In this document: positions 5,274-20,565 of the stretch, one piece after another
How positions within the stretch are numbered: position 1 is the first letter of the stretch
Layout of the letters: each line of letters opens with the position of its first letter
From: Escherichia coli
Lineage (GTDB): Bacteria; Pseudomonadota; Gammaproteobacteria; Enterobacterales; Enterobacteriaceae
Length of the DNA stretch: 64,000 nt
Strand: one strand, 5' to 3'
NCBI RefSeq assembly: GCF_003019035.1
Contig: NZ_CP027447.1
The notes under the pieces: model-generated
Database searches by the model: none
What the model was told of the DNA's origin: nothing
The model's input: the letters and a program-made list of their open reading frames with translations, nothing else
Made by a program: the position numbers and the translations under genes

Positions 5274-6038
5274 ATGAAAGATGAACGTCGCCCTATTTGC
5301 GAAGTGGTTGCAGAGAGTATCGAACGGTTAATTATCGACGGCGTACTGAAGGTCGGTCAGCCGCTTCCCTCGGAACGTCGACTGTGTGAAAAGCTCGGCT
5401 TCTCACGCTCCGCACTGCGTGAAGGGCTGACCGTGCTGCGCGGGCGCGGGATTATTGAAACGGCGCAGGGTCGCGATTCTCGTGTCGCACGGCTTAATCG
5501 GGTGCAGGACACCAGCCCGCTGATCCATCTGTTCAGTACGCAGCCGCGAACGCTGTACGATCTGCTCGACGTTCGCGCATTACTGGAGGGCGAATCGGCA
5601 AGGCTGGCGGCAACGCTGGGAACCCAGGCTGATTTTGTTGTGATAACCCGCTGTTATGAAAAAATGCTCGCCGCCAGTGAGAACAACAAAGAGATTTCGC
5701 TGATCGAACATGCGCAGTTGGATCACGCTTTCCATCTCGCCATTTGTCAGGCTTCTCACAATCAGGTGCTGGAGTTTACGCTGCAATCATTGACCGACCT
5801 GATGTTTAATTCGGTGTTTGCCAGCGTAAATAATCTCTACCATCGACCACAGCAAAAAAAGCAGATCGATCGCCAGCATGCGCGGATCTACAACGCGGTG
5901 TTGCAGCGGCTGCCGCACGTCGCCCAGCGCGCAGCACGCGATCATGTGCGGACCGTGAAAAAGAATCTCCACGATATCGAGCTGGAAGGCCACCATTTGA
6001 TTCGCTCGGCGGTGCCGCTGGAGATGAAGCAGGGGTGA
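5274..6038 (+). CDS. glcC: GntR/FadR-family transcriptional activator of the glc operon
   Basis: 274-aa ORF trimmed to MKDERRP start (254 aa); N-terminal GntR winged-helix region. Confidence 0.9.
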   Translation: MKDERRPICEVVAESIERLIIDGVLKVGQPLPSERRLCEKLGFSRSALREGLTVLRGRGIIETAQGRDSRVARLNRVQDTSPLIHLFSTQPRTLYDLLDVRALLEGESARLAATLGTQADFVVITRCYEKMLAASENNKEISLIEHAQLDHAFHLAICQASHNQVLEFTLQSLTDLMFNSVFASVNNLYHRPQQKKQIDRQHARIYNAVLQRLPHVAQRAARDHVRTVKKNLHDIELEGHHLIRSAVPLEMKQG

Positions 6039-6044
6039 CTGCCA

Positions 6045-7187
6045 TCAAATCTGCTTTTCATACAATCGGTAACGCTTGTACGGCTCCGCCCCAATGCGTT
6101 CCAGCATGTTATTCATGCCTGTATTGGTTTCGAGGATCCATGACATCTCCAGCGCATCGATCTTCCGGCGGGCAAACGGATCGCGTAAGGCTTCAATCAA
6201 TAACAACGCAATCACCGGGCCGATGCGGCTGAACTGATACTCGTCCCGCACGCCCATCAGCGGTACTCGCGCAGTTCGCACACCGCTGACTTTTAAACGC
6301 CACAGCAATTTTGCCCAGCCGAAGGGAAAGAGCGATCCGTTCAGATCGGCAATCGCCTCGTTGATGTTTGGCAAGCCGACAATAAACGCGCAGGGTGCAG
6401 AATCAATCTCAGCGATGTAGATCATATCGTCCGGCACCAGATATTTAAGTTGGTCGCCCATGGTCGCGAATTCATGTTCGGTAAACGGCACAAATCCCCA
6501 GTTGTGCTGCCAGCCAGAATTGAAAATCTCACGCAGGATCTGCATCTCTTCGGCAAACCGCTGGCGATTGATGCAGCGAATGGTCACCTTCTTACGCACC
6601 TGATCCATCAGTTTTTTTAGCGCCGGAGAGAAAGTGAGATCGGTTCGCTGCATCCACCACGCCAGTAAATCAATGCCTTTGTGATAACCCAATTGTTCAA
6701 TATGCGCGGCATACCACGGTTTACCGTGCGGCATCATCGCACAGGGTGGTGTATCGAAACCTTCAATCAGTAATCCGCTTTCCTGATTGATATTCAGGCT
6801 GAAAGGCCCGCTGATCTTACTTGCACCTTGTGACTTCAACCACGCTTCCGCTGCGCCAAACAACGCGGCAAAAACCTGCGGATCATCAATGGCGTCAATC
6901 ATGCCGAAATGACCGGTATCTTTGCCGTAACGCTCGCGGTGCAAGGTATCTATTTGCGCGGTAATACGCCCAACTATCTGCCCCGCTTTTTTTGCCACCC
7001 ACGCCTGCCAGATGATATGGTCCGTCCCCGGATTTTTCGCAGACAAATGCTCGTTGCGTTCAATGAATAAAGGGGGTATCCAGTTTGGATCGTCGGGATA
7101 AAGTGATGACGGAAAAGCGATAAATGCCTTAAGGTCATTTTTATTAATTACTTTTTCAATTTTAATCATCAGCAGATCGCATTCCAT
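6045..7187 (-). CDS. yghO: GNAT-like N-acyltransferase, candidate amine N-acylating enzyme (possible ceramide-synthase analogue)
   Basis: 380-aa ORF recognised as YghO; acyl-CoA N-acyltransferase-like fold assignment is from memory of the family, not a motif I can point to; start could be 7169 (MIKIEKV). Confidence 0.7.
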   Translation of the reverse strand: MECDLLMIKIEKVINKNDLKAFIAFPSSLYPDDPNWIPPLFIERNEHLSAKNPGTDHIIWQAWVAKKAGQIVGRITAQIDTLHRERYGKDTGHFGMIDAIDDPQVFAALFGAAEAWLKSQGASKISGPFSLNINQESGLLIEGFDTPPCAMMPHGKPWYAAHIEQLGYHKGIDLLAWWMQRTDLTFSPALKKLMDQVRKKVTIRCINRQRFAEEMQILREIFNSGWQHNWGFVPFTEHEFATMGDQLKYLVPDDMIYIAEIDSAPCAFIVGLPNINEAIADLNGSLFPFGWAKLLWRLKVSGVRTARVPLMGVRDEYQFSRIGPVIALLLIEALRDPFARRKIDALEMSWILETNTGMNNMLERIGAEPYKRYRLYEKQI

Positions 7188-7530
7188 AGTTCTGTGGGTA
7201 ACAAATAATTAACGGTGACAAACAGGTTGCAACAGCAACGAACGGCACCTTAATAATCAACCCAATGAATACAAACGACGAATAAATAGTATTTATTAAT
7301 GATTACGATAAGGTCAGAGACTACACAGAAGCGCCACAATGCCTTTTGTCGATTTAAGGCGACCGGACAAGGCTCCTTCTTAATATATTCATAAATTAAA
7401 TATCATTCACAATAAAAACAAAAAACTCAAATTCATTATTTAAATCAATGTTCATTTTCACACTGATGAAAATACTATCTCATTTATCTTTTATGCCTAT
7501 ATAATCCACCGCATTATTGTCATTTTATTT
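7188..7530. promoter_or_regulatory. AT-rich divergent control region between yghO and the lipid-synthesis operon
   Basis: 343-bp strongly AT-rich non-coding interval (runs such as aataaatagtatttattaatgatta) between divergent genes. Confidence 0.45.
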
Positions 7531-9282
7531 TTGATATCCAATTTTTTCGTGGTGTATATGTCTAATAAAATCTTTACGCATTCCCTACCTATGCGCTATG
7601 CCGATTTTCCAACGCTGGTTGATGCTTTGGACTATGCCGCTCTGAGTAGCGCTGGAATGAATTTTTATGACAGACGTTGCCAACTTGAAGATCAACTGGA
7701 ATATCAGACGTTAAAAGCGCGTGCCGAAGCTGGTGCGAAGCGGTTGTTATCGCTGAACCTGAAAAAAGGCGATCGCGTGGCACTGATTGCCGAAACCAGT
7801 AGCGGGTTCGTAGAGGCTTTTTTTGCCTGCCAGTATGCCGGCTTAGTCGCCGTCCCGTTGGCGATTCCCATGGGCGTCGGTCAGCGGGATTCCTGGAGCG
7901 CCAAGCTGCAGGGTTTACTGGCAAGTTGCCAGCCCGCAGCCATTATCACTGGTGATGAGTGGTTGCCACTGGTCAATGCCGCGACGCATAACAACAACCC
8001 CGAATTACATGTTTTAAGCCACGCCTGGTTTAAGGCATTACCGGAAGCCGATGTTGCGCTCCAGCGTCCAGTTCCGAACGATATCGCCTACCTCCAGTAC
8101 ACCTCCGGCAGCACCCGTTTTCCCCGTGGCGTCATTATCACCCATCGCGAAGTGATGGCTAATCTACGTGCTATAAGCCACGATGGCATAAAATTACGCC
8201 CTGGCGACCGCTGCGTCTCCTGGCTGCCTTTCTACCATGATATGGGACTGGTCGGCTTTCTCCTGACCCCCGTCGCCACGCAGCTTTCAGTAGATTATTT
8301 GCGCACTCAGGATTTTGCCATGCGTCCTCTGCAATGGCTTAAATTGATCAGTAAAAATCGCGGCACCGTTTCCGTTGCGCCGCCGTTTGGCTATGAATTG
8401 TGCCAGCGCCGCGTGAATGAAAAAGATCTCGCTGAACTGGATCTTTCCTGCTGGCGCGTCGCTGGTATTGGTGCAGAACCCATCTCCGCAGAACAACTCC
8501 ATCAATTCGCTGAATGTTTCCGTCAGGTCAACTTTGACGATAAAACTTTCATGCCGTGCTACGGACTGGCAGAAAATGCGCTGGCTGTCAGCTTCTCTGA
8601 TGAAGCTTCCGGGGTTGTGGTTAACGAAGTGGATCGCGACATCCTCGAATATCAGGGCAAAGCCGTCGCGCCGGATGCTGAAACACGCGCCGTATCGACT
8701 TTCGTCAACTGCGGTAAAGCGTTGCCGGAACATGGCATTGAAATCCGCAATGAAGCAGGTATACCTGTCGCGGAACGTGTGGTAGGCCATATTTGCATCT
8801 CCGGCCCTAGCCTGATGAGCGGTTACTTTGGCGACCAGATTTCACAAGACGAGATTGCCGCGACGGGCTGGTTAGACACCGGCGACCTCGGTTATCTGCT
8901 GGACGGTTATCTGTATGTCACCGGACGCATTAAAGATCTGATTATTATTCGTGGCCGTAATATCTGGCCGCAGGATATTGAATATATTGCGGAACAGGAA
9001 CCGGAAATTCATTCTGGCGATGCGATTGCTTTTGTTACCGCCCAGGAAAAAATCATTTTGCAGATCCAGTGTCGGATCAGCGATGAAGAACGTCGCGGGC
9101 AGCTTATCCACGCGCTGGCAGCACGGATCCAAAGCGAATTTGGTGTGACCGCGGCTATCGATCTGTTGCCGCCCCACAGTATTCCCCGAACGTCCTCCGG
9201 CAAGCCTGCCCGTGCGGAAGCGAAAAAACGTTATCAGAAGGCTTATGCTGCAAGCCTTCATGTGCAGGAATCCCTGGCATGA
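7531..9282 (+). CDS. fatty acyl-AMP ligase / acyl-ACP synthetase (AMP-binding superfamily)
   Basis: 583-aa ORF with adenylation motif YTSGSTRFPRGV and C-terminal SSGKPAR-type motif; start may be 7558 or 7591; stop overlaps next start (ATGA). Confidence 0.8.
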   Translation: MISNFFVVYMSNKIFTHSLPMRYADFPTLVDALDYAALSSAGMNFYDRRCQLEDQLEYQTLKARAEAGAKRLLSLNLKKGDRVALIAETSSGFVEAFFACQYAGLVAVPLAIPMGVGQRDSWSAKLQGLLASCQPAAIITGDEWLPLVNAATHNNNPELHVLSHAWFKALPEADVALQRPVPNDIAYLQYTSGSTRFPRGVIITHREVMANLRAISHDGIKLRPGDRCVSWLPFYHDMGLVGFLLTPVATQLSVDYLRTQDFAMRPLQWLKLISKNRGTVSVAPPFGYELCQRRVNEKDLAELDLSCWRVAGIGAEPISAEQLHQFAECFRQVNFDDKTFMPCYGLAENALAVSFSDEASGVVVNEVDRDILEYQGKAVAPDAETRAVSTFVNCGKALPEHGIEIRNEAGIPVAERVVGHICISGPSLMSGYFGDQISQDEIAATGWLDTGDLGYLLDGYLYVTGRIKDLIIIRGRNIWPQDIEYIAEQEPEIHSGDAIAFVTAQEKIILQIQCRISDEERRGQLIHALAARIQSEFGVTAAIDLLPPHSIPRTSSGKPARAEAKKRYQKAYAASLHVQESLA

Positions 9283-10193
9283 ATCAAACTGTCGCGGTGA
9301 CGGGCGCTACCGGGTTTATCGGTAAATATATTATCGATAACCTGCTCGCCCGCGGCTTTCACGTTCGCGCATTGACGCGTACTGCCCGTGCTCACGTCAA
9401 TGACAATCTCATCTGGGTGCGCGGTTCTCTGGAAGATACTCATTCACTTAGCGAACTGGTTGCCGGAGCCAGCGTGGTGGTCCATTGCGCCGGGCAAGTG
9501 CGCGGGCACAAAGAAGAGATTTTTACCCGCTGTAACGTTGACGGCAGCCTGCGACTGATGCAAGCGGCAAAAGAGAGCGGCTTTTGCCAACGTTTTCTGT
9601 TTATCTCTTCGCTGGCGGCGCGCCATCCCGAACTCTCCTGGTACGCAAATTCCAAACACGTCGCCGAACAACGGCTGACTGCAATGGCTGATGAAATTAC
9701 GCTGGGCGTTTTTCGCCCGACAGCCGTGTATGGTCCCGGCGATAAAGAGTTAAAACCGCTGTTTGACTGGATGCTGCGCGGCCTGCTGCCACGACTTGGT
9801 GCGCCAGATACACAACTCTCTTTCCTGCACGTCACCGATTTTGCGCAAGCAGTGGGTCAGTGGTTAAGCGCCGAAACTGTACAGACGCAAACCTATGAAT
9901 TATGCGATGGCGTCGCTGGCGGCTATGACTGGCAACGCGTACGACAGCTTGCCGCCGAAGCCCGTTGTGGTTCTGTGCAGATGGTTGGCATTCCTCTGCC
10001 GGTACTCACCTGCCTTGCGGATATCAGTACTGCGTTGAGTCGCCTGGCAGGTAAAGAACCTATGCTGACCCGCTCGAAAATTCGTGAATTAACCCACGCC
10101 GACTGGTCGGCAAATAATAACCGTATTTCTGAAGATATTAATTGGTTTCCCGGGATTAGCCTGGAACACGCATTACGCAACGGGCTATTTTGA
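9279..10193 (+). CDS. NAD(P)-dependent epimerase/dehydratase-fold reductase
   Basis: 304-aa ORF; N-terminal Rossmann motif VTGATGFIGKYI; translationally coupled to upstream ligase. Confidence 0.8.
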   Translation: MNQTVAVTGATGFIGKYIIDNLLARGFHVRALTRTARAHVNDNLIWVRGSLEDTHSLSELVAGASVVVHCAGQVRGHKEEIFTRCNVDGSLRLMQAAKESGFCQRFLFISSLAARHPELSWYANSKHVAEQRLTAMADEITLGVFRPTAVYGPGDKELKPLFDWMLRGLLPRLGAPDTQLSFLHVTDFAQAVGQWLSAETVQTQTYELCDGVAGGYDWQRVRQLAAEARCGSVQMVGIPLPVLTCLADISTALSRLAGKEPMLTRSKIRELTHADWSANNNRISEDINWFPGISLEHALRNGLF

Positions 10194-10224
10194 TTGTCTT
10201 GTTTAAAGGTGTGTTAACGTTTCT

Positions 10225-10473
10225 ATGGTAAATCGTGAAATAGTAATGGATTACATCCTTTCCTGTTTACAGGATTTGGTCGAAAACGGTGTGGAAATTA
10301 AGCCCAACAGCGATCTCGTCAACGATCTTGGCCTGGAGTCGATCAAAGTGATGGATCTCTTAATGATGCTGGAAGACAGATTCGATATTTCCATTCCTAT
10401 TAATATTCTGCTGGATGTCAAAACCCCTGTGCAATTAATGGAAACTCTACTTCCATGGCTGGAGAATAAATAA
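10225..10473 (+). CDS. acyl carrier protein (dedicated)
   Basis: 82-aa acidic ORF with phosphopantetheine-attachment-type motif DLGLESIKVMDL; stop overlaps next start (TAATG); start may be 10246. Confidence 0.75.
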   Translation: MVNREIVMDYILSCLQDLVENGVEIKPNSDLVNDLGLESIKVMDLLMMLEDRFDISIPINILLDVKTPVQLMETLLPWLENK

Positions 10474-11645
10474 TGGGGCTATACGATAAATATGCGCGCC
10501 TTGCTGGCGAGCGACTGCAATTTAGTGACAACGGGTTAACGCCGTTTGGTACCTGTATTGATGAAGTGTATTCCGCCACCGAAGGTCGGATCGGCAATAA
10601 AAAAGTGATTCTGGCCGGGACCAATAATTATCTCGGTTTAACCTTTAATCATGATGCCATCGCCGAAGGTCAGGCAGCGTTAGCGGCCCAAGGCACCGGC
10701 ACCACCGGTTCTCGTATGGCTAATGGCAGTTATGCGCCGCATCTGGCGTTAGAGAAAGAGATTGCCGAGTTTTTCAATCGCCCTACCGCTATCGTTTTTT
10801 CAACCGGTTATACCGCTAATTTAGGCGTCATCAGCGCACTTGCCGACCATAACGCCGTGGTGTTACTGGATGCCGACAGCCACGCCAGTATTTATGACGC
10901 CTGTTCTCTCGGTGGCGCGGAAATTATTCGTTTCCGCCATAACGATGCTAAAGATCTGGAACGGCGCATGGTTCGCCTCGGTGAACGGGCGAAAGAGGCG
11001 ATTATCATCGTTGAGGGCATCTACAGCATGCTCGGTGACGTTGCGCCGTTAGCGGAAATTGTTGATATCAAACGTCGTCTCGGTGGTTATTTGATTGTCG
11101 ATGAAGCGCATTCGTTTGGCGTGTTAGGCGCAACGGGGCGCGGACTGGCTGAAGCCGTTGGCGTTGAAGATGATGTGGATATTATCGTTGGTACTTTCAG
11201 TAAAAGTCTGGCCTCGATTGGCGGTTTTGCTGTCGGTTCGGAAGCGATGGAAGTGTTGCGCTACGGCAGCCGCCCGTATATTTTTACCGCCTCTCCTTCT
11301 CCGTCCTGCATTGCGACCGTGCGCTCGTCGTTAAGAACCATTGCCTCACAACCAGAGCTGCGGCAAAAGCTGATGGATAACGCCAACCATCTGTATGACG
11401 GTCTGCAAAAACTGGGTTATGAGTTAAGTTCACATATTAGCCCGGTAGTGCCGGTAATAATCGGTTCGAAAGAGGACGGTTTACGCATCTGGCGCGAGCT
11501 TATTTCGCTGGGCGTTTATGTGAATCTTATCCTGCCACCTGCCGCGCCTGCAGGCATCACTCTGCTGCGCTGTAGCGTAAACGCTGCCCACAGTCATGAG
11601 CAAATCGATGCCATCATTCAGGCATTTGCTACTCTGAAGCAGTAA
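10473..11645 (+). CDS. PLP-dependent alpha-oxoamine synthase (serine palmitoyltransferase / KBL / BioF family)
   Basis: 390-aa ORF; class-II aminotransferase fold with PLP-lysine motif GTFSKSLASIGGF; K-12 bioF and kbl are located elsewhere. Confidence 0.8.
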   Translation: MGLYDKYARLAGERLQFSDNGLTPFGTCIDEVYSATEGRIGNKKVILAGTNNYLGLTFNHDAIAEGQAALAAQGTGTTGSRMANGSYAPHLALEKEIAEFFNRPTAIVFSTGYTANLGVISALADHNAVVLLDADSHASIYDACSLGGAEIIRFRHNDAKDLERRMVRLGERAKEAIIIVEGIYSMLGDVAPLAEIVDIKRRLGGYLIVDEAHSFGVLGATGRGLAEAVGVEDDVDIIVGTFSKSLASIGGFAVGSEAMEVLRYGSRPYIFTASPSPSCIATVRSSLRTIASQPELRQKLMDNANHLYDGLQKLGYELSSHISPVVPVIIGSKEDGLRIWRELISLGVYVNLILPPAAPAGITLLRCSVNAAHSHEQIDAIIQAFATLKQ

Positions 11646-11679
11646 TGTGAGCCCGCCGTGGTGTTGCGCCACGGCGGGT

Positions 11680-12759
11680 TTAATGTTGTCTGTCATACCA
11701 ATACACCAGGCTCAACGCCATCAGGACAAACGCTACCGGTAAACCGAGCGCGGTAACAGGTGCACTCAACGCAAATAGCAACCCCAGATTGACCATGATT
11801 TGATAGCTGATCCAGGTGAGTAAGCCAACGATGACGCCTACAGCGAGACGGCTACCCATCCCTGGCGAGCGCGGGGCGCTAAAGGTGAACGGCACAGCCA
11901 GCAAAATCATCGCCAGGGTCAGGATCGGTTGCCCCAGTTTTTCCCACAGTGCAAGGCGGTATTCGCTGCTGGGTTGTCCGGTTTCCTGCAAATAATGGAT
12001 GTAATGATTAAGCTGACGGACAGAAAAAGTATTCCCCGGCATCGATAACTCTTCAAGATCCATACTGGTGAAGGCCGATTGCCAGGCAAGATTATCTGAT
12101 GTTTCCAGCGTTTCTTTGCCATTCAACCATTTTTTATGATTCACACCATGCAGGATCCACGTTTTGTCGTCTTCAATGGAGGCACTGCGTGCAAAAATGT
12201 AGGATTCGAGCGAGAGATCGTCGCGATAATGAAATATCTCCACGCCCACAGGCTGGCCCTGCTCGTTCAGCGATTTCACCGTCACAAATTCATTACCGCG
12301 CCTGGCCCAAAGCATATTGCCGGTAATGTCATCGTCCTCCCCCAACGCGGTGGCAGTCGATTTGATTTGCAGCGCCTGTTGCTGCAATGGCGACGCCACC
12401 CACTCATCTATCGCGCCTAACGAAACAGTCCACAATATCCCGGCAACCAGCGCCACCAGTGCAATACGGAAGATAGAAAACCCAGTGCTGCGAATGGCGG
12501 TAAGCTCACTGTTTTTCGATAACTGCCCCAGGCCAACAATCCCTCCCAATAATGCGATAAATGGCGAAAGTTCGACCAGTGTACGCGGTAAGGTCATCAG
12601 CACCACCAGCACCGCCTGAGTCCAGCGATAACCGCCCGGGCTGACATCATCCAGTTCGTTAATCAGGTTGAAGGTGGTAAAAAGCGGCAGCAATAGCCCT
12701 GCGGCGGCGGCAAAACCGAGAAAGAGATGACGGATTAAATAGCGACTGAAAACATTCAT
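11680..12759 (-). CDS. LptG-like permease (YjgP/YjgQ family)
   Basis: Multi-pass membrane ORF; start set at MNVFSRYLIRH so that it overlaps the upstream gene stop by 4 nt (longest ORF extends to 12840). Confidence 0.7.
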   Translation of the reverse strand: MNVFSRYLIRHLFLGFAAAAGLLLPLFTTFNLINELDDVSPGGYRWTQAVLVVLMTLPRTLVELSPFIALLGGIVGLGQLSKNSELTAIRSTGFSIFRIALVALVAGILWTVSLGAIDEWVASPLQQQALQIKSTATALGEDDDITGNMLWARRGNEFVTVKSLNEQGQPVGVEIFHYRDDLSLESYIFARSASIEDDKTWILHGVNHKKWLNGKETLETSDNLAWQSAFTSMDLEELSMPGNTFSVRQLNHYIHYLQETGQPSSEYRLALWEKLGQPILTLAMILLAVPFTFSAPRSPGMGSRLAVGVIVGLLTWISYQIMVNLGLLFALSAPVTALGLPVAFVLMALSLVYWYDRQH

Positions 12760-13826
12760 CGGGAAAATTTCTGCAGCAAAGAGAAGTCGCGTGCGACCAG
12801 CATCAGCAGGCCCATTAGCATGAGTCCGGGTACTAACCACAAACCAGGAATGAGGGGAATCGCACCGTTAGCCACCAGCGTACGGCAGACGTCGCCGCCA
12901 TAAAAAATGGCAACAAACAGCAACGTCAGTGGCAATAACGTTGAAAATCGCCCTTGCCGCGGTTTTACCCGACTTAATGAAATGGCCAGCAGCGCCATCA
13001 ACAATGCGGTCAGGCCACGGCTTTGTCGCCATTGCAGTTCGGCATGATCGGCTGGAAAGACGGAGCGCGCCAGCTCCGTGACCGATTTTGCTTTGCGTTT
13101 GACGTTAGGGCTTTGATCCAGCTGATTCAGATGTAATTGCAGATTACGGTAGATCTGTTCGTTGTCGTCACGCCCCTGATGATCGAGAAGATAGGCGGTC
13201 CCGTTATGCAACATAACGGTCGGTTTCTCAGGTGATGGGTCAACCACATCAACCGAACGGGCGCGGAAAATGCGGGTTCGATTGGCAGTAGAAGTATAAA
13301 TCAGCGCGTCAGTCAGGCGATTATTATCCTGATCAACCGTCTGCGAAAGGATCATTCGTCCGTTATCGTTAGTGTTAAATTTCTTTGCCCGCAACTGGCG
13401 AACATCCAGCTCCGACTGCGACTGTTGCTCCAGTTGATAAATCTGCGCATAAGCCCACGGCCGACCATACATCGACAGAAGGGTGACAAAAATACTTAGC
13501 GGTATCGCCAGATAAAGAACGGCTTTGTACAAGCGTCCCGGACTGCCCCCCGCCGCAGAGATAGCGGTAATTTCCGAGTCGGTATACATCTGCCCTAGCG
13601 TCACGCCAACTGACACATACAGACCAACAGGTAACAACATCTCCAGTGCAATCAGCACTTTGTAGAAAACGATATCCAGCACAACATCAAGAGCTAAGGT
13701 CCCATTTGCCGCTTCGGTCAGATAACGCTGTGCGGAGTAGCTGGCGAAAATAAAGATCAGAAAACCGACGATAATCAGCACCAGACGGCGCGTACCACGC
13801 ATGATGTAGTGTTCAACCAGCTTCAT
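12756..13826 (-). CDS. LptF-like permease (YjgP/YjgQ family)
   Basis: 356-aa ORF, N-terminal TM helices, large periplasmic loop, C-terminal TM helices; paired with LptG-like gene. Confidence 0.7.
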   Translation of the reverse strand: MKLVEHYIMRGTRRLVLIIVGFLIFIFASYSAQRYLTEAANGTLALDVVLDIVFYKVLIALEMLLPVGLYVSVGVTLGQMYTDSEITAISAAGGSPGRLYKAVLYLAIPLSIFVTLLSMYGRPWAYAQIYQLEQQSQSELDVRQLRAKKFNTNDNGRMILSQTVDQDNNRLTDALIYTSTANRTRIFRARSVDVVDPSPEKPTVMLHNGTAYLLDHQGRDDNEQIYRNLQLHLNQLDQSPNVKRKAKSVTELARSVFPADHAELQWRQSRGLTALLMALLAISLSRVKPRQGRFSTLLPLTLLFVAIFYGGDVCRTLVANGAIPLIPGLWLVPGLMLMGLLMLVARDFSLLQKFSR

Positions 13827-13856
13827 CTCACTAACACCCTCAATCCTTTGAATTTT

Positions 13857-14420
13857 TTATTCATTGATCAGTTTCTGCGCCAGCGCAATGACATGATCTA
13901 CCTCTTCCGGCGTCAGGCTGCCGTCCTTTGCCCACTGAATTTGCCCGTCTTTATTCAGCACCAGAATGGTTGAACTCTGCTCCGGCAACCGCCAGGCAAC
14001 GCGTCCCAGTCCATTGCCGTCAATAACGAATTGCGCCCACGGATAGCGGCGTTTATTTTTTTCGATTTTGCCAACGACAAAATAGCCAGTACCGAAGATG
14101 GCATCATCGGTGTTCACAATGGTGGTGGGCTGAAAACGATCCTGCGGAAAGTTTGCCGCTTCAACCGCTTTAATTAACAGTGAGTTCTTTTTCTTCGCCG
14201 ACTTACGCCCGGCGATATACTGAATAATGCGGACTTTTCCCGCCAGCTGTGTGCTGTTCCACTTTTGGTAGTGAATTTCGTCGTCGCTATTCAGAAGCAG
14301 CTCGCCGCCTTCCTGGATATAAACGGGGGTAACCGTTTTGCCAGTGACGAAATTGTGTGCCTGCACACCCTGGGCTAAGAGCATGATAATCAGCGCAATA
14401 ATCAAACGAGATGACATCAT
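13857..14420 (-). CDS. secreted/periplasmic protein of unknown function (possibly thioredoxin-like fold)
   Basis: 187-aa ORF with N-terminal signal peptide MMSSRLIIALIIMLLAQGVQA; fold assignment is a guess. Confidence 0.55.
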   Translation of the reverse strand: MMSSRLIIALIIMLLAQGVQAHNFVTGKTVTPVYIQEGGELLLNSDDEIHYQKWNSTQLAGKVRIIQYIAGRKSAKKKNSLLIKAVEAANFPQDRFQPTTIVNTDDAIFGTGYFVVGKIEKNKRRYPWAQFVIDGNGLGRVAWRLPEQSSTILVLNKDGQIQWAKDGSLTPEEVDHVIALAQKLINE

Positions 14421-14428
14421 TGCTCCGG

Positions 14429-15253
14429 TTATAGCGGAAAACGCGAAATCAGCAGCTCTAAGCGCTGGCGAATATCGCTATCCAGCGCCACCGGTGCATC
14501 ATACGACTGGCGGTTTTCCATATCATCCGCCACCATGTCGTCGTGTTTATCCCCCATCAGGCCATTAATGGCGGCGAGGAAGCGGGAAATCTGTAACGCC
14601 TCTTTATTTTCAGGATCAAGCGATCTTAAGGTGTCGTAATAAGAAACCTGCTGGCTGATGATTTTTCGCACATCATGAAATTCCCTGCCGGTGAGTCGCG
14701 GTTTGGCAATTATCTCTTTCAGGGTATGCATTTGCTTTTGCCGATAGGCAATAAAACCGCTTACGCTTTCTAACTGGCTATGGCGTAATGAATAGTTCAC
14801 CAACGACCAGACCGGAGAGCTTAAATAAACCCGTAACAGGTTGCCGTAATACGACACAATATTTTTCTTACCGTTACGAAAACCGTCCTGAAAACGCCCC
14901 AAAAAAACGGTCGTTTTGCCGAATAAAAATCCGGCCTGATGCTTCTTTAAATACAGCCGTTGCGCAAAACGCAGGTGCTTGTAGCGCGCTCGCATGTATT
15001 TATACTTTTTGCGCTCATCGTCGGTAAGTATTTTGCCTTTTGCTTGTTTCAGCGTTAAGCGAAGTAACTCTTTGCGATTTACACCATCCAGCCAGAATCT
15101 CAAACATAAGGCATAATTGTCATGAATAATCTCCGGTGAACAGCGCAAAGTGATCGTTGGCGGCAAGCTAACCTGTGTGTCAATAACATCATTATCATCA
15201 ACAGCAATAAATAAACGCTCAATGACCTCAAGTGGAAAGTATTTTCTCATCAT
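14429..15253 (-). CDS. hypothetical basic protein, no recognisable domain
   Basis: 274-aa ORF; start overlaps yghQ stop (ATGA coupling) so likely translated. Confidence 0.55.
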   Translation of the reverse strand: MMRKYFPLEVIERLFIAVDDNDVIDTQVSLPPTITLRCSPEIIHDNYALCLRFWLDGVNRKELLRLTLKQAKGKILTDDERKKYKYMRARYKHLRFAQRLYLKKHQAGFLFGKTTVFLGRFQDGFRNGKKNIVSYYGNLLRVYLSSPVWSLVNYSLRHSQLESVSGFIAYRQKQMHTLKEIIAKPRLTGREFHDVRKIISQQVSYYDTLRSLDPENKEALQISRFLAAINGLMGDKHDDMVADDMENRQSYDAPVALDSDIRQRLELLISRFPL

Positions 15254-16602
15254 TGGAATTTTTCTCCGACTCCGTTATAGACCAATAAATGGCGACGGAG
15301 AAAAGTCCTTAATGTCGGTGCTAACGACAGGATCACATCCAGACATTGACCACCGAAATAAGCAAATGCAGCCCCCATTACGCCAAACAGATGACAAAAC
15401 ATAAACAACAAAATAACGTAAGCTAACGATGCAATAGTTTGTGCTATCAAAAAAGCGCGCTGTTTTCCCGCCATCAATAGCAATGACTCCTGAGGGAAGC
15501 CCAGCATCGAGATCACAATTGCGCCCAGCATCACCTGAATCAGGTCATACGCTTCGAGATACTTAACGCCAAACACCAGCGAAATAAGCGGCTTGCCGAC
15601 GATCAACACCGCGAGCGCCACCAGAATTCCGATTCCGCCCGCCAGTAAACCTGACTTCACGCCTAACAACCACGGTCTGGTGGTGCGCGGATCTAAACGC
15701 ATCACCTCTGGGTAAAAACTTTTGCCCAGTAAACCCGCTGGCGTTCCGGCGGCGTCGAAGAATGTCATGGCGATTTTAAATAACCCGGCGGCAGCGGGTC
15801 CTAACACGATCCCCACCAGCACTGTGCTGCACGAGTTACGCGCCGACCAGATGGAGTGGGCAATGTTGGTTGACCAGACAAAACTCCACGCGCCTTTGAT
15901 GTGTCGGGCAGACTCAAACAGATTCAATTTGAACGCGTTATGGATATTTCTGCGGCGTAATTCGCGCGCGGCAAACCACCAGTACATGGTGCCGCCAACC
16001 AGATTCGACACGTACCAGGCAATAACAAAGCCCGCAAAACCAAAGTCAAAATACCAGGCTACGACGCTCCCCGCTGCGCGCAGAAAAGGTTTCGTCGCTT
16101 GCTGTACAGCAATTAGATCGAAGCGATCTACCGCACGCAGAATGCCGGTCGGCGTGGAGGAAGCCATTGAAGGAATGAGCGTGCAATACAGCGCTGCCAG
16201 CCAAAAGCTTTGGTCATCCAGACCTAATGAATGGGAAAGAAAAGGGAGTAAGGCAATGCCGCCGACAATCGCCACCGCGCCGCTGACGATATCCAGCGAG
16301 AAGGAAAATGAGACGACATTGCGGAATTGCTGCGGATTATTGTTGGTTAATGCTGGTGTTCCGTACTGAACCACCAGCTGCCATGTCTGAAACTTAATAA
16401 AATCGCTGATCGACTTGGCGTACGATTGTACAATCACCAGTACGCCAAACATGGCGGGCGTCATCCCTTTACCGGCACACGAGAGCGCCAACAGACCCAG
16501 TAAAGCGCTCACGACATTACTGGAGCCTAACCAGGCGCTATTGCGAATAATGGTGCGAAACGCGCCATCTGCAAACCAATGTTTGATGTTAAAACCCGCC
16601 AA
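15250..16602 (-). CDS. yghQ: MOP-superfamily (Wzx/MurJ-like) flippase, full length
   Basis: 450-aa polytopic membrane ORF; recognised as YghQ but longer than the 355 aa I recall for K-12; start uncertain. Confidence 0.75.
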   Translation of the reverse strand: MAGFNIKHWFADGAFRTIIRNSAWLGSSNVVSALLGLLALSCAGKGMTPAMFGVLVIVQSYAKSISDFIKFQTWQLVVQYGTPALTNNNPQQFRNVVSFSFSLDIVSGAVAIVGGIALLPFLSHSLGLDDQSFWLAALYCTLIPSMASSTPTGILRAVDRFDLIAVQQATKPFLRAAGSVVAWYFDFGFAGFVIAWYVSNLVGGTMYWWFAARELRRRNIHNAFKLNLFESARHIKGAWSFVWSTNIAHSIWSARNSCSTVLVGIVLGPAAAGLFKIAMTFFDAAGTPAGLLGKSFYPEVMRLDPRTTRPWLLGVKSGLLAGGIGILVALAVLIVGKPLISLVFGVKYLEAYDLIQVMLGAIVISMLGFPQESLLLMAGKQRAFLIAQTIASLAYVILLFMFCHLFGVMGAAFAYFGGQCLDVILSLAPTLRTFLRRHLLVYNGVGEKFQ

Positions 16603-16647: not shown

Positions 16648-17406
16648 TTAAGTTAAACTTCGGCGGTCAGAAACGATGGCAACCAGAGAAACCGCCTTCT
16701 GTGCCTGTTCCAGCACTTCGCTGTAAGGCGCTCTGGAATCAATCTCAAGAATTTTTGTGCCGTTATAGCCAATCGTCGACATGACGCCGATTTTGTCCTG
16801 CAGCTCGGCATAGTCATGGTCAGGCTTGCGGGAGATGGCAGTATCAATATCAATCCCCAAACGAATGATTAATTCAGGACGGTATTGCGCCATTTGTTGG
16901 TATAAACGCCGTTCGCGCTGCGCCAGAAACATGCTGATTTTCCCGGTCGCACGTTCGACGCCGATCCCCGGTCCGTCATAATAAAAGCCCGAAATTTCAG
17001 CCTGCGGGAAGCGATCGCTGACCACCAGAACGCCACTTTGCGCCAGTCGCTGAACCTTGCGTAGATTCGCCATTCTTCGCAGCGAGAAGCAGTACATAAT
17101 CACCGCCGCCCATACCGCCGGAGATTTGGTTTTCATGCTTTGGGTTTTCGAGGATTTGGCCGCCAGTCGCCGTTCGAGCCAGACGCCAACCAACGGCAAT
17201 CGTTTGATTTTGTCGCCGTCTTCGCCCGAGAGCAGCCCCAGATAGCGCCGCTCGGTTTGCCAGTGTTGTTGCAGCGATTTCACGAGGTCGGTGGTCAGTG
17301 TGGATTTACCGGTGCCATCACACCCGACCACCGCAATCAGCCCCGGAATGTAGTTGGGCTGCGGCGCGGTTGTACTATTAACAGTTTGTGTTTGTAGTGC
17401 GTCCAT
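16648..17406 (-). CDS. yghR: P-loop NTPase/kinase-like protein
   Basis: Walker A GCDGTGKST; conserved SDRFP and ARKPDH motifs shared with yghS and yghT; no ABC signature LSGGQ. Confidence 0.8.
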   Translation of the reverse strand: MDALQTQTVNSTTAPQPNYIPGLIAVVGCDGTGKSTLTTDLVKSLQQHWQTERRYLGLLSGEDGDKIKRLPLVGVWLERRLAAKSSKTQSMKTKSPAVWAAVIMYCFSLRRMANLRKVQRLAQSGVLVVSDRFPQAEISGFYYDGPGIGVERATGKISMFLAQRERRLYQQMAQYRPELIIRLGIDIDTAISRKPDHDYAELQDKIGVMSTIGYNGTKILEIDSRAPYSEVLEQAQKAVSLVAIVSDRRSLT

Positions 17407-17437: not shown

Positions 17438-18151
17438 TCAGGAAAGCGCAGCGTGAATTGCGCGTAGTGACGCTTGCAGAATTTCATCGGCTGGTTGCCG
17501 ACCATCCAGTTCAAGGATCTTTGCGCCATTGAATGTCAGTTGCGGCGTAACGGCGATTTTTTCCTGTAACGCTGCCAGTTGGTGGTCAGGTTTACGCGCA
17601 AACGCGGTTTGTTCATCAATGCCAAGACGAATCAACAATACGGGCAAATAAGACGCCATCCATTGGTACAGCTTCAGCTCGCGCTGCCTTAACATTTTTA
17701 TCCAACCGTTACCGCCCGTGGTTTTTGCCAATTGCGGGCCATCAAAGCGAAAACCCGGCACTTCAACCTGCGGGTAGCGGTCGGTGATGAGCAGATAGCC
17801 TTGCTGGCTTTTACACAACATTTTGCGAAACTTGTACGCCCGCCAGCAGGAAAGCAGATAGATAACCAGCGCAGTAATATTGCCAGGCGGTGTGGAGGGC
17901 TTTTCGTGCACATGTGCCGCTTTACTTCGCAGATAACGCCCAAAAGGTGCGCCAATAACAGGGAGCTGTGAAATCCATTCGCCAATTCGCCCGGACGATT
18001 GCCCGAGATAAATGTGTTCTGTTGGCATTGTTGCTGCCAGTTCATTTACCAGGCTTGCCGTGAGGGTCGATTTACCTGAACCATCACATCCTACAATGGC
18101 AATAACACGCACTGGCGTGGAATTAATTATTGACATATTACGTTGATTCAC
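17438..18151 (-). CDS. yghS: P-loop NTPase/kinase-like protein (paralogue of yghR)
   Basis: Walker A GCDGSGKST; TDRYP and ARKPDH motifs. Confidence 0.8.
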   Translation of the reverse strand: MNQRNMSIINSTPVRVIAIVGCDGSGKSTLTASLVNELAATMPTEHIYLGQSSGRIGEWISQLPVIGAPFGRYLRSKAAHVHEKPSTPPGNITALVIYLLSCWRAYKFRKMLCKSQQGYLLITDRYPQVEVPGFRFDGPQLAKTTGGNGWIKMLRQRELKLYQWMASYLPVLLIRLGIDEQTAFARKPDHQLAALQEKIAVTPQLTFNGAKILELDGRQPADEILQASLRAIHAALS

Positions 18152-18324: not shown

Positions 18325-19017
18325 ATGCAGTCAATAACACCTCCATTAATTGCCGTTATTGGTAGCGATGGTTCAGGCAAGTCAACGGTGTGTGAACATC
18401 TCATTACCGTTGTCGAAAAATATGGTGCTGCCGAAAGAGTTCATTTAGGAAAACAGGCCGGAAATGTCGGTCGTGCAGTGACAAAATTACCGTTGATGGG
18501 AAAATCCTTACATAAAACAATTGAACGAAATCAGGTGAAAACAGCAAAAAAATTGCCAGGACCAGTTCCGGCGCTGGTAATTACAGCGTTTGTCGCCCGT
18601 CGCTTACTGCGCTTTCGTCATATGCTTGCCTGTCGTCGTCGCGGGTTAATTGTTCTAACCGACCGTTATCCTCAGGACCAAATTCCTGGCGCTTACGATG
18701 GTACAGTGTTCCCACCTAACATTGAAGGTGGTCGTTTTGTCTCATGGCTGGCAAGCTAGGAACGTAAAGCGTTTCACTGGATGGCGAGCCATAAACCGGA
18801 TCTGGTCATCAAACTCAATGTTGACCTTGAAGTTGCCTGCGCGCGTAAACCCGACCATAAACGGGAATCGCTGGCGAGGAAGATTGCCATAACGCCACAG
18901 TTAACCTTTGGCGGTGCACAACTGGTTGATATCGATGCTAATCAGCCACTGGAAAAGGTGCTGATTGATGCAGAAAAAGCGATTACGGATTTTATGACCG
19001 CGCGTGGTTATCACTAG
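18325..19017 (+). pseudogene. yghT: P-loop NTPase/kinase-like protein interrupted by an in-frame TAG at 18757-18759
   Basis: 144-aa and 78-aa ORFs are in the same frame; the 693-nt span is 231 codons (230 aa plus stop) with one internal TAG; Walker [10 protein letters not shown]. Confidence 0.6.
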
Positions 19018-19065: not shown

Positions 19066-20565
19066 TTAAATCAACTGCAATGCTATCCAGTACAACCCAC
19101 CAGAAAGAAAAATCGCCGCCGGTAAAGTAAACACCCACGCCATCAGGATGCTGGTTACCGTTTTACGCTGTAACCCACCGCCGTCCACCACCATCGTCCC
19201 TGCTACCGCAGACGAGAGGACGTGTGTTGTGGAGACGGGCATCCCAATATAACTGGCAAGGCCGATAGACACTGCCGCCGTCATTTGTGCCGCCATGCCT
19301 TGCGCATACGTCATGCCGCGCTTACCAATCTTCTCACCGATGGTCATCGCTACACGACGCCAGCCAATCATGGTGCCGATGCCGAGCGCCAGTGCTACCG
19401 CCATGATGATCCACACCGGTGCGTACTCAATGGTGCTTAACATATCGCTGCGCAGTTTTTTCAGCAGGTTCTGGTCTTCTTTACTGACGCCTGGCAGTTT
19501 CGCCAGCTTCGCGGAGGTATCAGAGATGCACAGCATAATGCGGCGCAGCTGGCTGCGCTGACTCACGCTTAACGGCTCGTAACTTTCCATATTGCCTGGC
19601 AGCATCGTTTTAACGCGCGCAATCGCATCAAAGGTATTTGCCGGATGACAGTGAAACTCTGTTACTTGCGTGCCATCAGTCGATGTCGCAGGCAATGGAG
19701 GTTCCATCGTAATCAACTTCTGCGGCAGTTCAGGATGCTGTTGCAGGTAGTGTTCGAAGTTGGTGACGGCATCGCGGGTACGGGTAATTTCATAGCCGGA
19801 CGCGTTCATATTGACGACGAAGCCAGCAGGGGCAATCCCCACCAGTACCAGCATCACCAGGCCGATCCCTTTCTGCCCGTCGTTCGCGCCGTGCGAAAAC
19901 GCCACGCCCGCAGCGGAAACAATCAGCGCAATACGCGTCCAGAATGGCGGCTTACGTTTGCCTTTTTTCTTTTTGCGATCTTCCGGAATGCGGTGAATAC
20001 GGTCACGCTTTTTCGTCCCGCTCCAGAAACGGCGCAGCAGGAAAATCAGACCACCCGCAATGACCAGGCCGACGATAGGGGAAACAATCAGCGAGGAGAA
20101 AATTTTGGTCACTTCACGCAGGTTTAACGCATCCATCACCGATGAGCCGGTTAACAGCGCGTTGGTTAAACCGATGCCGATAATCGCACCAATCAAGGTA
20201 TGCGAACTGGAGGCCGGTAAACCAAAGAACCACGTTCCCAGGTTCCAGATAATCGCCGCCAGCAGCATGGAAAAGACCATCGCCAGGCCGTGAGTTGACC
20301 CCATATTCAGCAACAAATCGGTTGGCAACATATGGACAATGGCATAGGCAACGCTAAGTCCGCCTAGCAATACGCCAAAAAAGTTAAAAAATGCCGCCAT
20401 CACCACAGCAAGTTGTGGTTGCATGGCACGAGTATAAATAACGGTTGCCACCGCATTCGCCGTGTCATGAAAACCATTGATTGCTTCGTAGAACAACACA
20501 AATGCCAGAGCAAGTAATAACAAAAGCCCTGTGTATATATCAAGGCCAACAAATAAATTTAGCAT
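19066..20565 (-). CDS. pitB: low-affinity inorganic phosphate transporter
   Basis: 499-aa ORF with PitA/PitB-type sequence ([35 protein letters not shown]); position next to yghT. Confidence 0.9.

What the first reader, a model, noticed from the sequence alone, without database searches (positions are those of the whole stretch)
6045..16602. Locus is uninterrupted here, whereas K-12 carries an IS5-disrupted remnant
From memory of the K-12 map, glcC is followed by a truncated yghO, an IS5 copy and a shortened yghQ (about 355 aa), then yghR-yghS-yghT. Here there is no IS element and yghQ is 450 codons. The whole biosynthesis operon and the permease genes sit where K-12 has the insertion and deletion. 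If that memory is right, the standard laboratory strain has lost the core of this system, which would explain why it remains undescribed.
Basis: partly seen in the sequence, partly recalled or inferred. Interest (0 to 1): 0.55.

Follow-up and report, generated by a model that had tools for sequence, protein, structure and literature searches.

The report
E. coli sphingolipid locus, lost in K-12
This window holds the intact 13-gene E. coli locus for making and exporting a sphingolipid-type membrane lipid; laboratory strain K-12 destroyed it stepwise with IS5 elements, but both the locus and the K-12 remnant are already in the literature.

Summary
Between glcC and pitB the window carries an uninterrupted block: yghO | aasR-cerR-acpR-spt | lptG2-lptF2-ytfJ-like-CHAD-like-yghQ-yghR-yghS | yghT. 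K-12 MG1655 lacks window 7148-15534 (8,387 bp) and has one 1,195-bp IS5 (IS5LO) there. Its native yghO loses 13 codons and its yghQ stops after 355 aa.

The intact state is ancestral. At least 80% of the K-12-missing stretch is present in 4,063 of 5,426 complete E. coli genomes, always at this site. It is also there in cryptic Escherichia clades. There is no tRNA, integrase or flanking repeat, and all 13 genes are under purifying selection.

The early K-12 stock WG1 keeps an intermediate state: the same IS5-yghQ junction, but only 1.36 kb deleted, plus a second IS5 in acpR. So the MG1655 deletion is a later extension. Other lineages lost the locus independently (O157:H7 at SpLE3, several through IS1).

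'Undescribed' is wrong. AasR, AcpR and Spt of BL21(DE3) have been shown to make 3-oxo-sphinganine. A 2026 preprint draws the UTI89 locus and ties LptF2/G2 to sphingolipid export.

New here: the stepwise history, the prevalence figures, and a CHAD-fold protein next to three dTMP-kinase-like paralogues, which hints at a phosphate-rich head group.

The parts
5274..6038 (+). glcC, left flanking core gene; its stop lies 6 bp from the yghO stop
   Evidence: RefSeq annotation of the near-identical strain SCU-301; spacing
6045..7187 (-). yghO, candidate bacterial ceramide synthase (N-acyltransferase 'aca'/cerS). The K-12 left breakpoint is at 7147/7148, at a TTAA (7144-7147) in codon 13-14
   Evidence: It is 42% identical to the homologue in a Caulobacteraceae spt locus. 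PMC9386255 pairs yghO/ECD_02850 with CC_1154. No Pfam, NCBIfam or PDB sequence hit
7148..15534 (.). Segment missing from K-12 MG1655 (8,387 bp), replaced there by IS5LO
7188..7557 (.). Divergent yghO/aasR spacer, 370 bp, 31.6% GC; presumed promoter region and a recurrent IS1 insertion and deletion site in other strains
   Evidence: IS1 junctions
7558..9282 (+). aasR, fatty acyl-AMP ligase (acyl-AcpR synthetase)
   Evidence: NCBIfam NF006624, 872 bits against a cut-off of 600; ECD_02851 tested in PMC9386255
9279..10193 (+). cerR/epi, extended short-chain dehydrogenase (SDR), candidate 3-keto reductase
   Evidence: Pfam Epimerase/3Beta_HSD; NCBIfam hits below cut-offs; ECD_02852 in PMC9386255
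10225..10473 (+). acpR, dedicated acyl carrier protein with the DLGLES phosphopantetheine motif. The WG1 IS5#1 target TTAA is at 10435-10438
   Evidence: ECD_02853 was labelled with beta-alanine in PMC9386255
10473..11645 (+). spt, serine palmitoyltransferase
   Evidence: NCBIfam equivalog NF047599, 599 bits against a cut-off of 500; SPT_Ec activity in PMC9386255
11680..12759 (-). lptG paralogue (lptG2)
   Evidence: TIGR04408, 305 bits against 240; the Caulobacter LptG2 role is described in 10.64898/2026.04.12.717747
12756..13826 (-). lptF paralogue (lptF2)
   Evidence: TIGR04407, 319 bits against 230
13857..14417 (-). YtfJ-family protein with an N-terminal signal-like sequence. The WG1 left breakpoint of IS5#2 is at 14177/14178 (TTAA at 14174-14177)
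   Evidence: TIGR01626, 216 bits against 151
14429..15253 (-). 274-aa 'hypothetical protein' with a CHAD-like all-helical fold and many invariant Lys/Arg/His
15250..16602 (-). yghQ, MOP/Wzx-type flippase family, 450 codons. In K-12 IS5 abuts 15535, where codon 356 reads TAG instead of CAG (window CTGA at 15535-15538)
   Evidence: Pfam Polysacc_synt; weak MOP flippase hit; 33% identical to the gene upstream of aasR in a Caulobacteraceae locus; junction
16648..17406 (-). yghR, dTMP-kinase-like P-loop protein (paralogue 1)
17438..18151 (-). yghS, dTMP-kinase-like P-loop protein (paralogue 2)
18325..19017 (+). yghT, dTMP-kinase-like P-loop protein (paralogue 3); in this window interrupted by TAG at 18757-18759
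19066..20565 (-). pitB, right flanking phosphate transporter. It also lies within 10 kb of the block in Citrobacter, Pseudocitrobacter, Hafnia and Pluralibacter

Best explanation
Window 6045-19017 is the native E. coli copy of the proteobacterial sphingolipid locus. It is a 13-gene unit lying between glcC and pitB. Shown in the literature: AasR loads a fatty acid onto the dedicated carrier AcpR, and Spt condenses acyl-AcpR with serine to give 3-oxo-sphinganine. Inferred by homology: CerR reduces the product and YghO N-acylates it to give a (dihydro)ceramide. Inferred from work on Caulobacter: the MOP-family protein YghQ flips the lipid, and the LptF2/LptG2 permease pair, probably powered by the housekeeping LptB, extracts it from the inner membrane towards the outer membrane. 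My own inference: the three dTMP-kinase-like paralogues YghR/S/T and the CHAD-fold protein add or handle a phosphate-rich anionic head group. The periplasmic YtfJ-like protein has no assigned role. K-12 does not have this system because IS5 destroyed it in steps. Step 1: an IS5 sat in yghQ at a CTAA that is itself a CAG-to-TAG change of codon 356, and 1.36 kb to its left was deleted up to a TTAA in the ytfJ-like gene. Step 2: a second IS5 inserted in acpR with a clean TTAA duplication; this state is preserved in stock WG1. Step 3: in the line leading to EMG2, MG1655 and W3110, the deletion was extended leftward by a further 7.0 kb, to a TTAA in codon 13-14 of yghO. That left one IS5 with unmatched flanks (TTAA and CTAA). 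Every left junction sits on an IS5 target (YTAR). The events were therefore transposase-made adjacent deletions, or new insertions followed by IS5-IS5 recombination.
For: Structure of the deletion. WG1 intermediate with an identical IS5-yghQ junction; PMC9997739 notes the extra IS5-flanked genes in WG1 relative to EMG2, MG1655 and W3110. The K-12 ancestor carried the B-type allele. WG1 spt to ytfJ' is 100% identical to BL21 over 3,743 bp. The K-12 right flank differs from BL21 at 2 of 4,500 bases, one of them the junction G-to-A. Ancestral state: at least 80% of the K-12-missing stretch is present in 4,063 of 5,426 complete genomes, on chromosomes (all but 1 of 4,287 places) and at the glcC-pitB site in every record inspected. 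It is intact in B2 UTI89, BL21-derived Rosetta2(DE3) and O111 strain 11128. It lies at the same glcC-pitB site in cryptic Escherichia clades. There is no tRNA and there are no flanking repeats. Block GC is 49.9% against 51.0% for the window, and gene junctions with the flanks are 6 and 48 bp. dN/dS is 0.04-0.20 for all 13 genes, with dS similar to that of glcD and pitB. The 13 genes travel together across Citrobacter, Pseudocitrobacter, Hafnia, Serratia, Mangrovibacter, Pluralibacter, Rosenbergiella and Pantoea, although the modules are rearranged. Function: family scores above curated cut-offs for Spt, FAAL, LptF, LptG and YtfJ; biochemistry of the E. coli enzymes in PMC9386255; the LptF2/G2-LptB complex and synthetic lethality in Caulobacter in 10.64898/2026.04.12.717747. 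Head-group module: with the parallel in PMC12995831.
Against: None of the papers I found reports a sphingolipid from any unmodified E. coli. In PMC9386255 the empty-vector BL21(DE3) control, which has the intact locus, gave only the ordinary lipid profile on TLC. The locus may therefore be silent in laboratory media. The locus is lost again and again (K-12, O157:H7, several IS1 deletions), and single genes are knocked out in some carriers: yghT here, yghS in L063, aasR in ET210. It is therefore dispensable under many conditions. The roles of YghQ, YtfJ-like, the CHAD-like protein and YghR/S/T are inferred from fold and gene neighbourhood only. The YghS model is of moderate quality (pLDDT 76), and a dTMP-kinase fold does not identify the substrate. 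The order of the K-12 events is inferred from two genomes. IS5#1 could be specific to WG1. Whether step 3 happened in the laboratory rests on the stock history given in PMC9997739.
Confidence: 0.85

Rival explanations
1. The extra genes are a horizontally acquired island present in this strain and some others. K-12 shows the original empty site with an unrelated IS5.
For: Across Enterobacterales the block is patchy. Spt relatives were found in Citrobacter, Hafnia, Serratia and others, but not in the representative genomes of Salmonella, Klebsiella, E. fergusonii or E. albertii. So it has been gained or lost at deeper levels. About a fifth of complete E. coli genomes lack the interior.
Against: In K-12 the IS5 interrupts two genes of the block, leaving yghO without its first 13 codons and yghQ without its last 94. 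An empty site would not show that. WG1 keeps most of the interior with the same right junction. There is no integrase, tRNA or direct repeat; GC is native-like and dS is like that of the flanks. The block is at the same site in cryptic clades. Absences in other lineages have different IS- or island-marked endpoints.
Confidence: 0.03
2. The locus is an LPS or polysaccharide system, as the automatic names suggest ('LPS export permease LptF/LptG', 'lipopolysaccharide biosynthesis protein', 'NAD-dependent epimerase/dehydratase'), and not a sphingolipid system.
For: The LptF and LptG paralogues pass the NCBIfam equivalog cut-offs. YghQ hits the Polysacc_synt and MOP flippase families. CerR resembles sugar epimerases.
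Against: The locus holds a serine palmitoyltransferase above its equivalog cut-off, with its dedicated ACP and acyl-ACP synthetase. The E. coli proteins make 3-oxo-sphinganine when co-expressed. There is no glycosyltransferase or sugar-nucleotide enzyme in the block. The housekeeping lptF/lptG lie elsewhere in E. coli (my own knowledge). In Caulobacter the LptF2/G2 paralogues become essential only when sphingolipids are made.
Confidence: 0.05
3. The locus is a decaying relic in E. coli as a whole: expressed nowhere, making nothing, and being lost at random. On this view the K-12 loss has no phenotypic meaning.
For: Independent IS-mediated losses are seen in many lineages. Nonsense or split genes occur in carriers. 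BL21(DE3) controls showed no native sphingolipid.
Against: All 13 genes have dN/dS of 0.04-0.20 against UTI89, E. whittamii and Citrobacter amalonaticus. At least 80% of the K-12-missing stretch is kept in about 80% of non-K-12 complete genomes. Gene content is conserved across genera despite rearrangement. These patterns indicate selection for function in nature.
Confidence: 0.1
4. The whole 8.4-kb K-12 deletion is one event that predates isolation in 1922, and WG1 regained or never belonged to that history.
For: MG1655 has a single IS5 with unmatched flanks, which one adjacent deletion could produce. I examined only one intermediate genome.
Against: WG1 and MG1655 share the identical IS5-yghQ junction, including the unique G-to-A base, which is one of only 2 differences from BL21 in 4.5 kb. 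That marks common descent of the right junction, while WG1 retains 7 kb that MG1655 lacks. PMC9997739 treats WG1 as an early K-12 stock.
Confidence: 0.07

Closest known systems
E. coli BL21(DE3) ECD_02850-ECD_02854 (yghO/aca, aasR, epi/cerR, acpR, spt), Padilla-Gomez et al. 2022, PMC9386255
   Same: It is the same locus, an allele of it. Rosetta2(DE3) has all 13 genes in the same order and site, and about 96% DNA identity to the window over the K-12-missing stretch. YghO is the identical protein (WP_001300526.1). AasR, AcpR and Spt have been tested biochemically.
   Different: The paper presents it as a feature of 'E. coli B' and ETEC B7A. It covers only the five biosynthetic genes and does not mention K-12, IS5 or the eight other genes. 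Here the block is shown to be the majority state of the species.
Caulobacter crescentus sphingolipid locus CC_1152-CC_1168 (ccna_01212-01226), PMC11324152 and bioRxiv 10.64898/2026.04.12.717747
   Same: It has the five ceramide genes, an LptF2/LptG2 pair with no LptB of its own, and a MOP-type putative flippase next to aasR. A Caulobacteraceae locus shows homologues at 33-53% identity.
   Different: The ±7-10 kb fetched around spt in the Caulobacteraceae locus shows no homologue of YghR/S/T, the CHAD-like protein or the YtfJ-like protein. The annotated E. coli block has no LptC2-like gene. I did not test it for homologues of the CPG2 head-group enzymes (CC_1152/1153/1158-1161). The head group is therefore probably different.
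Other IS-caused envelope defects of K-12, such as rfb-50 (IS5 in wbbL, loss of O antigen)
   Same: The same element (IS5), the same strain history, and the same kind of target, a surface-lipid pathway (PMC9997739; the list of 11 IS5 copies in PMC11677980).
   Different: rfb-50 is a simple insertion. Here the insertion is combined with successive adjacent deletions that removed eight and a half genes, so it cannot revert.
Crenarchaeal PPK3 polyphosphate operon (two dTMP-kinase-like paralogues plus a CHAD protein plus PPX), PMC12995831
   Different: There is no PPX or SixA here. The module sits inside a lipid synthesis and export locus. Sequence similarity is limited to the P-loop region. Ordinary dTMP kinases match equally well, so this is a lead and not a membership.

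Membership tests
Proteobacterial ('Rhodobacteria'-type) ceramide synthesis cluster | Serine palmitoyltransferase of the alpha-oxoamine synthase family | tested here: met
   NCBIfam equivalog NF047599, 599 bits against a cut-off of 500; enzyme activity of the BL21 allele in PMC9386255
Proteobacterial ('Rhodobacteria'-type) ceramide synthesis cluster | Dedicated ACP gene directly upstream of spt, forming an operon | tested here: met
   acpR 10225-10473 overlaps the spt start by 1 nt; PF00550; DLGLES motif
Proteobacterial ('Rhodobacteria'-type) ceramide synthesis cluster | Specialised acyl-ACP synthetase (AasR) nearby | tested here: met
   FAAL NF006624, 872 bits against a cut-off of 600; 43% identical to the Caulobacteraceae homologue
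Proteobacterial ('Rhodobacteria'-type) ceramide synthesis cluster | CerR-type SDR reductase and bCerS-type N-acyltransferase | tested here: met
   cerR is 35% and yghO 42% identical to the genes in a Caulobacteraceae spt locus; orthology is stated in PMC9386255. The catalytic activity of the E. coli proteins has not been shown
Proteobacterial ('Rhodobacteria'-type) ceramide synthesis cluster | The organism actually makes a ceramide or sphingolipid | not testable with these tools
   Needs lipidomics; I found no report for native E. coli
LptF2/LptG2 sphingolipid exporter | A second LptF/LptG pair encoded inside the sphingolipid locus, with no LptB in the locus | tested here: met
   TIGR04407 and TIGR04408 above cut-off; no ABC ATPase among the 13 genes
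LptF2/LptG2 sphingolipid exporter | Complex with the housekeeping LptB; required when sphingolipid is made | not testable with these tools
   Shown only for Caulobacter
Simple IS5 insertion (K-12 allele) | 1,195-bp element with terminal inverted repeats, flanked by a matching 4-bp YTAR duplication | tested here: not met
   The element is complete, but the flanks are TTAA and CTAA in MG1655 and at WG1 IS5#2, so each is an insertion plus deletion. WG1 IS5#1 does have a matching TTAA
Genomic island / mobile element (rival reading of the block) | Integrase or transposase, a tRNA or att-type direct repeats at the borders, atypical composition | tested here: not met
   No tRNA; no flanking repeats; no such genes; GC 49.9%
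CHAD domain proteins (274-aa gene) | CHAD helical-bundle fold | tested here: met
   [not shown]
CHAD domain proteins (274-aa gene) | Sequence match to a known family profile (Pfam hits on record, NCBIfam) | tested here: not met
   No Pfam hit on record and no NCBIfam hit; the PDB profile search was empty
CHAD domain proteins (274-aa gene) | Binds inorganic polyphosphate | not testable with these tools
   Invariant residues are rich in Lys/Arg/His, which is suggestive only
PPK2/PPK3-type polyphosphate kinases (YghR/S/T) | dTMP-kinase-superfamily P-loop fold | tested here: met
   [not shown]
PPK2/PPK3-type polyphosphate kinases (YghR/S/T) | Specific relationship to PPK families rather than to nucleotide kinases; polyP-dependent activity | tested here: inconclusive
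   [not shown]

The most novel reading that the evidence does not exclude
Most natural E. coli, and a scattering of other Enterobacterales, can make an anionic sphingolipid that has never been seen, because K-12 cannot make it and the locus is quiet in ordinary media. Its head group would be built not by the Caulobacter phosphoglycerate enzymes but by a module of three dTMP-kinase-like kinases and a CHAD-fold, polyphosphate-type binding protein. The product would be a ceramide carrying one or several phosphates, or a polyphosphate chain. YghQ and an LptB-LptF2-LptG2 machine would then export it to the outer membrane.
Probability: 0.2. Interest if true: 0.8.

Novelty: already known. Interest (0 to 1): 0.35.

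Why it matters
Work on the E. coli envelope and its lipids has long leaned on K-12, which lacks this pathway. Its reference annotation still lists the chimeric yghO (b2981) and the truncated yghQ (b2983) as ordinary genes. They are in the ASKA and Keio collections and are interpreted as functional, for example yghQ as a chlorhexidine-resistance marker (PMC8170033, PMC6199490). Three-quarters of sequenced complete genomes, including uropathogens and BL21, carry the full locus. If it is expressed in the host, a surface sphingolipid could affect outer-membrane barrier function, polymyxin and phage sensitivity, and host signalling, as such lipids do in Caulobacter and Bacteroides. The stepwise IS5 record also gives a dated example of how laboratory storage erodes a genome.

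Tried and rejected
PDB sequence searches with YghO, the YtfJ-like protein and the profile of the 274-aa protein gave nothing usable. The fold search was needed for the 274-aa protein.

The Stankeviciute 2022 paper (PMC8891067) is not held. Olea-Ozuna 2021 was not among the results listed and I did not read it. I therefore cannot say whether either mentions K-12.

Two guesses at the Sakai coordinates missed the site before the third found it.

A phylogroup-by-phylogroup survey could not be done, because the search tool lists at most 60 records and gives no phylogroup. I used named strains and junction-specific 200-bp queries instead. The two IS1 junction queries are noisy, because IS1 is very abundant and the 40-piece limit was reached in about 380 records.

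I considered that the CTAA beside the K-12 IS5 might be ordinary strain divergence. I rejected that because it is one of only two differences from BL21 in 4.5 kb.

I considered YghR/S/T as the missing ABC ATPase of LptF2/G2 and rejected it. Their fold is that of a nucleotide kinase, not an ABC protein.

I did not test the block for homologues of the Caulobacter ceramide kinase CpgB, which PMC10331486 describes as a diacylglycerol-kinase-like protein with a GGDG motif.

Full report
**What is in the window**

ORF listing and the RefSeq annotation of the nearly identical strain SCU-301 agree on the gene order. SCU-301 differs from the window at 3 of 19,201 bases.

- Left flank: glcD, glcC.
- yghO (6045-7187, minus strand).
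- Transcribed divergently from yghO: aasR (7558-9282), cerR (9279-10193), acpR (10225-10473), spt (10473-11645).
- Convergent on these, on the minus strand: lptG paralogue (11680-12759), lptF paralogue (12756-13826), YtfJ-family gene (13857-14417), a 274-aa gene (14429-15253), yghQ (15250-16602), yghR (16648-17406), yghS (17438-18151).
- Divergent yghT (18325-19017).
- Right flank: pitB and gss.

There is no IS5 anywhere in the window.

**The comparison with K-12**

I aligned MG1655 with the window, using two records that are identical over 6 kb spanning the IS5 region. K-12 matches window 2000-7147 and 15534/15535-21200 at 97.9% identity. Between them is a complete 1,195-bp IS5 (IS5LO, insH9). 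K-12 thus lacks window 7148-15534, which is 8,387 bp.

The native yghO loses its first 13 codons and its promoter. The reference annotation reads it on into IS5 as a 390-aa protein. yghQ ends after 355 residues.

**How the deletion arose**

The flanks of the K-12 IS5 are TTAA on the left and CTAA on the right. The element therefore does not sit in a simple target duplication.

Strain WG1 is an early K-12 stock from Palo Alto, and it shows an intermediate state.

- yghO, aasR and cerR are intact.
- One IS5 lies in the 3' end of acpR, with a clean TTAA duplication (window 10435-10438).
- spt, lptG2 and lptF2 are intact.
- A second IS5 has its left flank at a TTAA in the ytfJ-like gene (14174-14177).
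- The right junction of that second IS5 with yghQ is identical to the MG1655 junction.

WG1 therefore lacks only window 14178-15534. MG1655 shares the right junction but has its left junction 7.0 kb further on.

All three left junctions lie on TTAA. PMC11677980 gives CTAA and CTAG as IS5 insertion sites. The wider YTAR consensus, which includes TTAA, is my own knowledge. This points to transposase-made adjacent deletions, or to fresh insertions followed by recombination between IS5 copies.

PMC9997739 had noted that WG1 carries extra genes 'lptG, acpP, oleD' flanked by IS5, relative to EMG2, MG1655 and W3110. It did not interpret them.

The base next to the shared right junction is informative. 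K-12 and WG1 read CTAA where the window, BL21 and every uninterrupted genome listed read CTGA (window 15535-15538). On the coding strand this changes yghQ codon 356 from CAG to TAG. K-12 differs from BL21 at only 2 of 4,500 bases on this flank, so the coincidence is unlikely to be chance. The simplest reading is that a nonsense mutation in yghQ also created a preferred IS5 target. This is an inference.

**Ancestral or inserted?**

The K-12-missing segment is at least 80% present in 4,063 of 5,426 complete E. coli genomes (74.9%). It is partly present in 204 and absent from 1,159. All but one of 4,287 matching places are on chromosomes, with at most two per genome.

The K-12-type yghO-IS5 junction occurs in 353 genomes. 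Those listed are mostly laboratory derivatives, plus one dog-source record (THB42-F5) and an EC600 transconjugant labelled as human-derived.

Full blocks were verified in three strains:

- UTI89, phylogroup B2.
- BL21-derived Rosetta2(DE3).
- O111:H- strain 11128.

A scan of one genome per species found the block at the same glcC-pitB site in E. whittamii and three other Escherichia lineages.

The borders are tight: 6 bp to glcC and 48 bp to pitB. They contain no tRNA, integrase or direct repeats, and the block has 49.9% GC. For all 13 genes dN/dS is 0.04-0.20 against UTI89, E. whittamii and Citrobacter amalonaticus. Synonymous divergence resembles that of glcD and pitB. The intact state is therefore ancestral for E. 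coli, and the K-12 state is derived.

**Other losses**

Several other lineages have lost the locus, each with different endpoints (window coordinates):

| Lineage | What is missing | Element at the junction |
|---|---|---|
| O157:H7 Sakai | everything from pheV to the middle of pitB (up to 19329) | SpLE3/OI-122 island ending in IS remnants |
| FORC_082 | 7227-20729 | IS1 |
| DXMF6-3R | 7631-20519 | IS1 |
| ET210 | 10660-20751 | IS1 |
| ETEC1746 | up to 15034 | IS1 |
| PKF8 | up to 18157 | IS1 |

The Sakai junction is found in 296 genomes. The 370-bp yghO-aasR spacer has 31.6% GC and carries IS1 at many positions in further genomes. Loss is recurrent and independent.

**What the locus does**

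Spt, the fatty acyl-AMP ligase, both Lpt paralogues and the YtfJ-family protein score above the curated NCBIfam cut-offs.

PMC9386255 cloned the BL21 alleles of three of these genes.

- It showed that AcpR carries phosphopantetheine.
- AasR, AcpR and Spt together yield 3-oxo-sphinganine.
- Spt prefers acyl-AcpR as its substrate.
- It assigned ECD_02852 and yghO to the reductase and N-acyltransferase steps.

PMC11324152 and a 2026 preprint describe second copies of LptF, LptG and LptC, plus a putative flippase, in the Caulobacter locus. They show that LptF2/G2 bind each other and the housekeeping LptB, and they draw the E. coli UTI89 locus for comparison.

My tblastn comparison shows that all 13 genes, including yghR, yghS and yghT, stay together in Citrobacter, Pseudocitrobacter, Hafnia, Serratia, Mangrovibacter, Pluralibacter, Rosenbergiella and Pantoea. 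The modules are shuffled between these genera, which defines the functional unit.

**The uncharacterised genes**

The pairing of dTMP-kinase-like paralogues with a CHAD protein, next to the phosphate transporter pitB, suggests a phosphate-rich head group on the lipid. This is a hypothesis only.

The ±7-10 kb fetched around spt in the Caulobacteraceae locus shows no homologue of these proteins. The E. coli block was not tested for homologues of the Caulobacter head-group enzymes.

**Verdict**

The claim that the system is undescribed does not hold.

- The exact breakpoints.
- The stepwise IS5 history through WG1.
- The nonsense and target-site coincidence at the shared junction.
- Species-wide prevalence and the independent losses.
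- The definition of the 13-gene unit across genera.
- The CHAD and dTMP-kinase-like lead.

No native E. coli sphingolipid has been reported in the papers I could search.

Noticed in passing
window 18757-18759 (yghT): yghT has a premature TAG at codon 145 in this window. The otherwise nearly identical strain SCU-301 (3 differences in 19.2 kb) reads CAG. One gene of the 13-gene block is therefore probably inactive in this strain.
   Followed up: partly
[not shown]
   Followed up: partly
window 15535-15538 versus K-12 L002 6344-6347: The 4 bp next to the K-12/WG1 IS5 read CTAA instead of CTGA. This is one of only two differences from BL21 in 4.5 kb. It is a CAG-to-TAG nonsense change in yghQ that also creates a preferred IS5 target.
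   Followed up: partly
window 7188-7557: The yghO-aasR spacer is 370 bp at 31.6% GC. In other E. coli genomes it holds IS1 copies at many different positions, often with deletions running to the pitB-gss region.
   Followed up: partly
window 14429-15253 versus L068 (UTI89): The CHAD-like gene has dS 0.56 against UTI89, while its neighbours have 0.05-0.20. This suggests a divergent allele or an old recombination patch. UTI89 annotates it as 837 nt rather than 825.
   Followed up: no
L062 (O157:H7 Sakai 3,852,167-3,875,617): In Sakai the SpLE3/OI-122 island at pheV ends in IS remnants that abut a truncated pitB. The gsp/yghJ region, the whole glc operon and the sphingolipid block are all missing. 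The junction is shared by 296 complete genomes.
   Followed up: partly
window 19066-20565 (pitB) and loci L010-L012, L014, L015, L019, L023: pitB lies within 10 kb of the block in Citrobacter, Pseudocitrobacter, Hafnia and Pluralibacter, although glcC does not. It follows yghT in all of them except Pluralibacter, where it lies upstream of yghO. It may belong functionally with the phosphate-handling genes, or it may mark an old insertion site.
   Followed up: no
window 23789-23850: Every comparison with other strains breaks between 23788 and 23851 (between yghU and hybG). The intervening piece has a different length in each strain, so this is a variable intergenic element.
   Followed up: no
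(E. coli genomes): One of about 4,800 matching places lies on a record classed as a plasmid. This may be a misassigned replicon or a rare transfer.
   Followed up: no
L063 16966-17663: In another E. coli assembly yghS is split into two ORFs of 85 and 148 aa, a further example of single-gene decay in carriers of the locus. ET210 has an internal stop in aasR.
   Followed up: no
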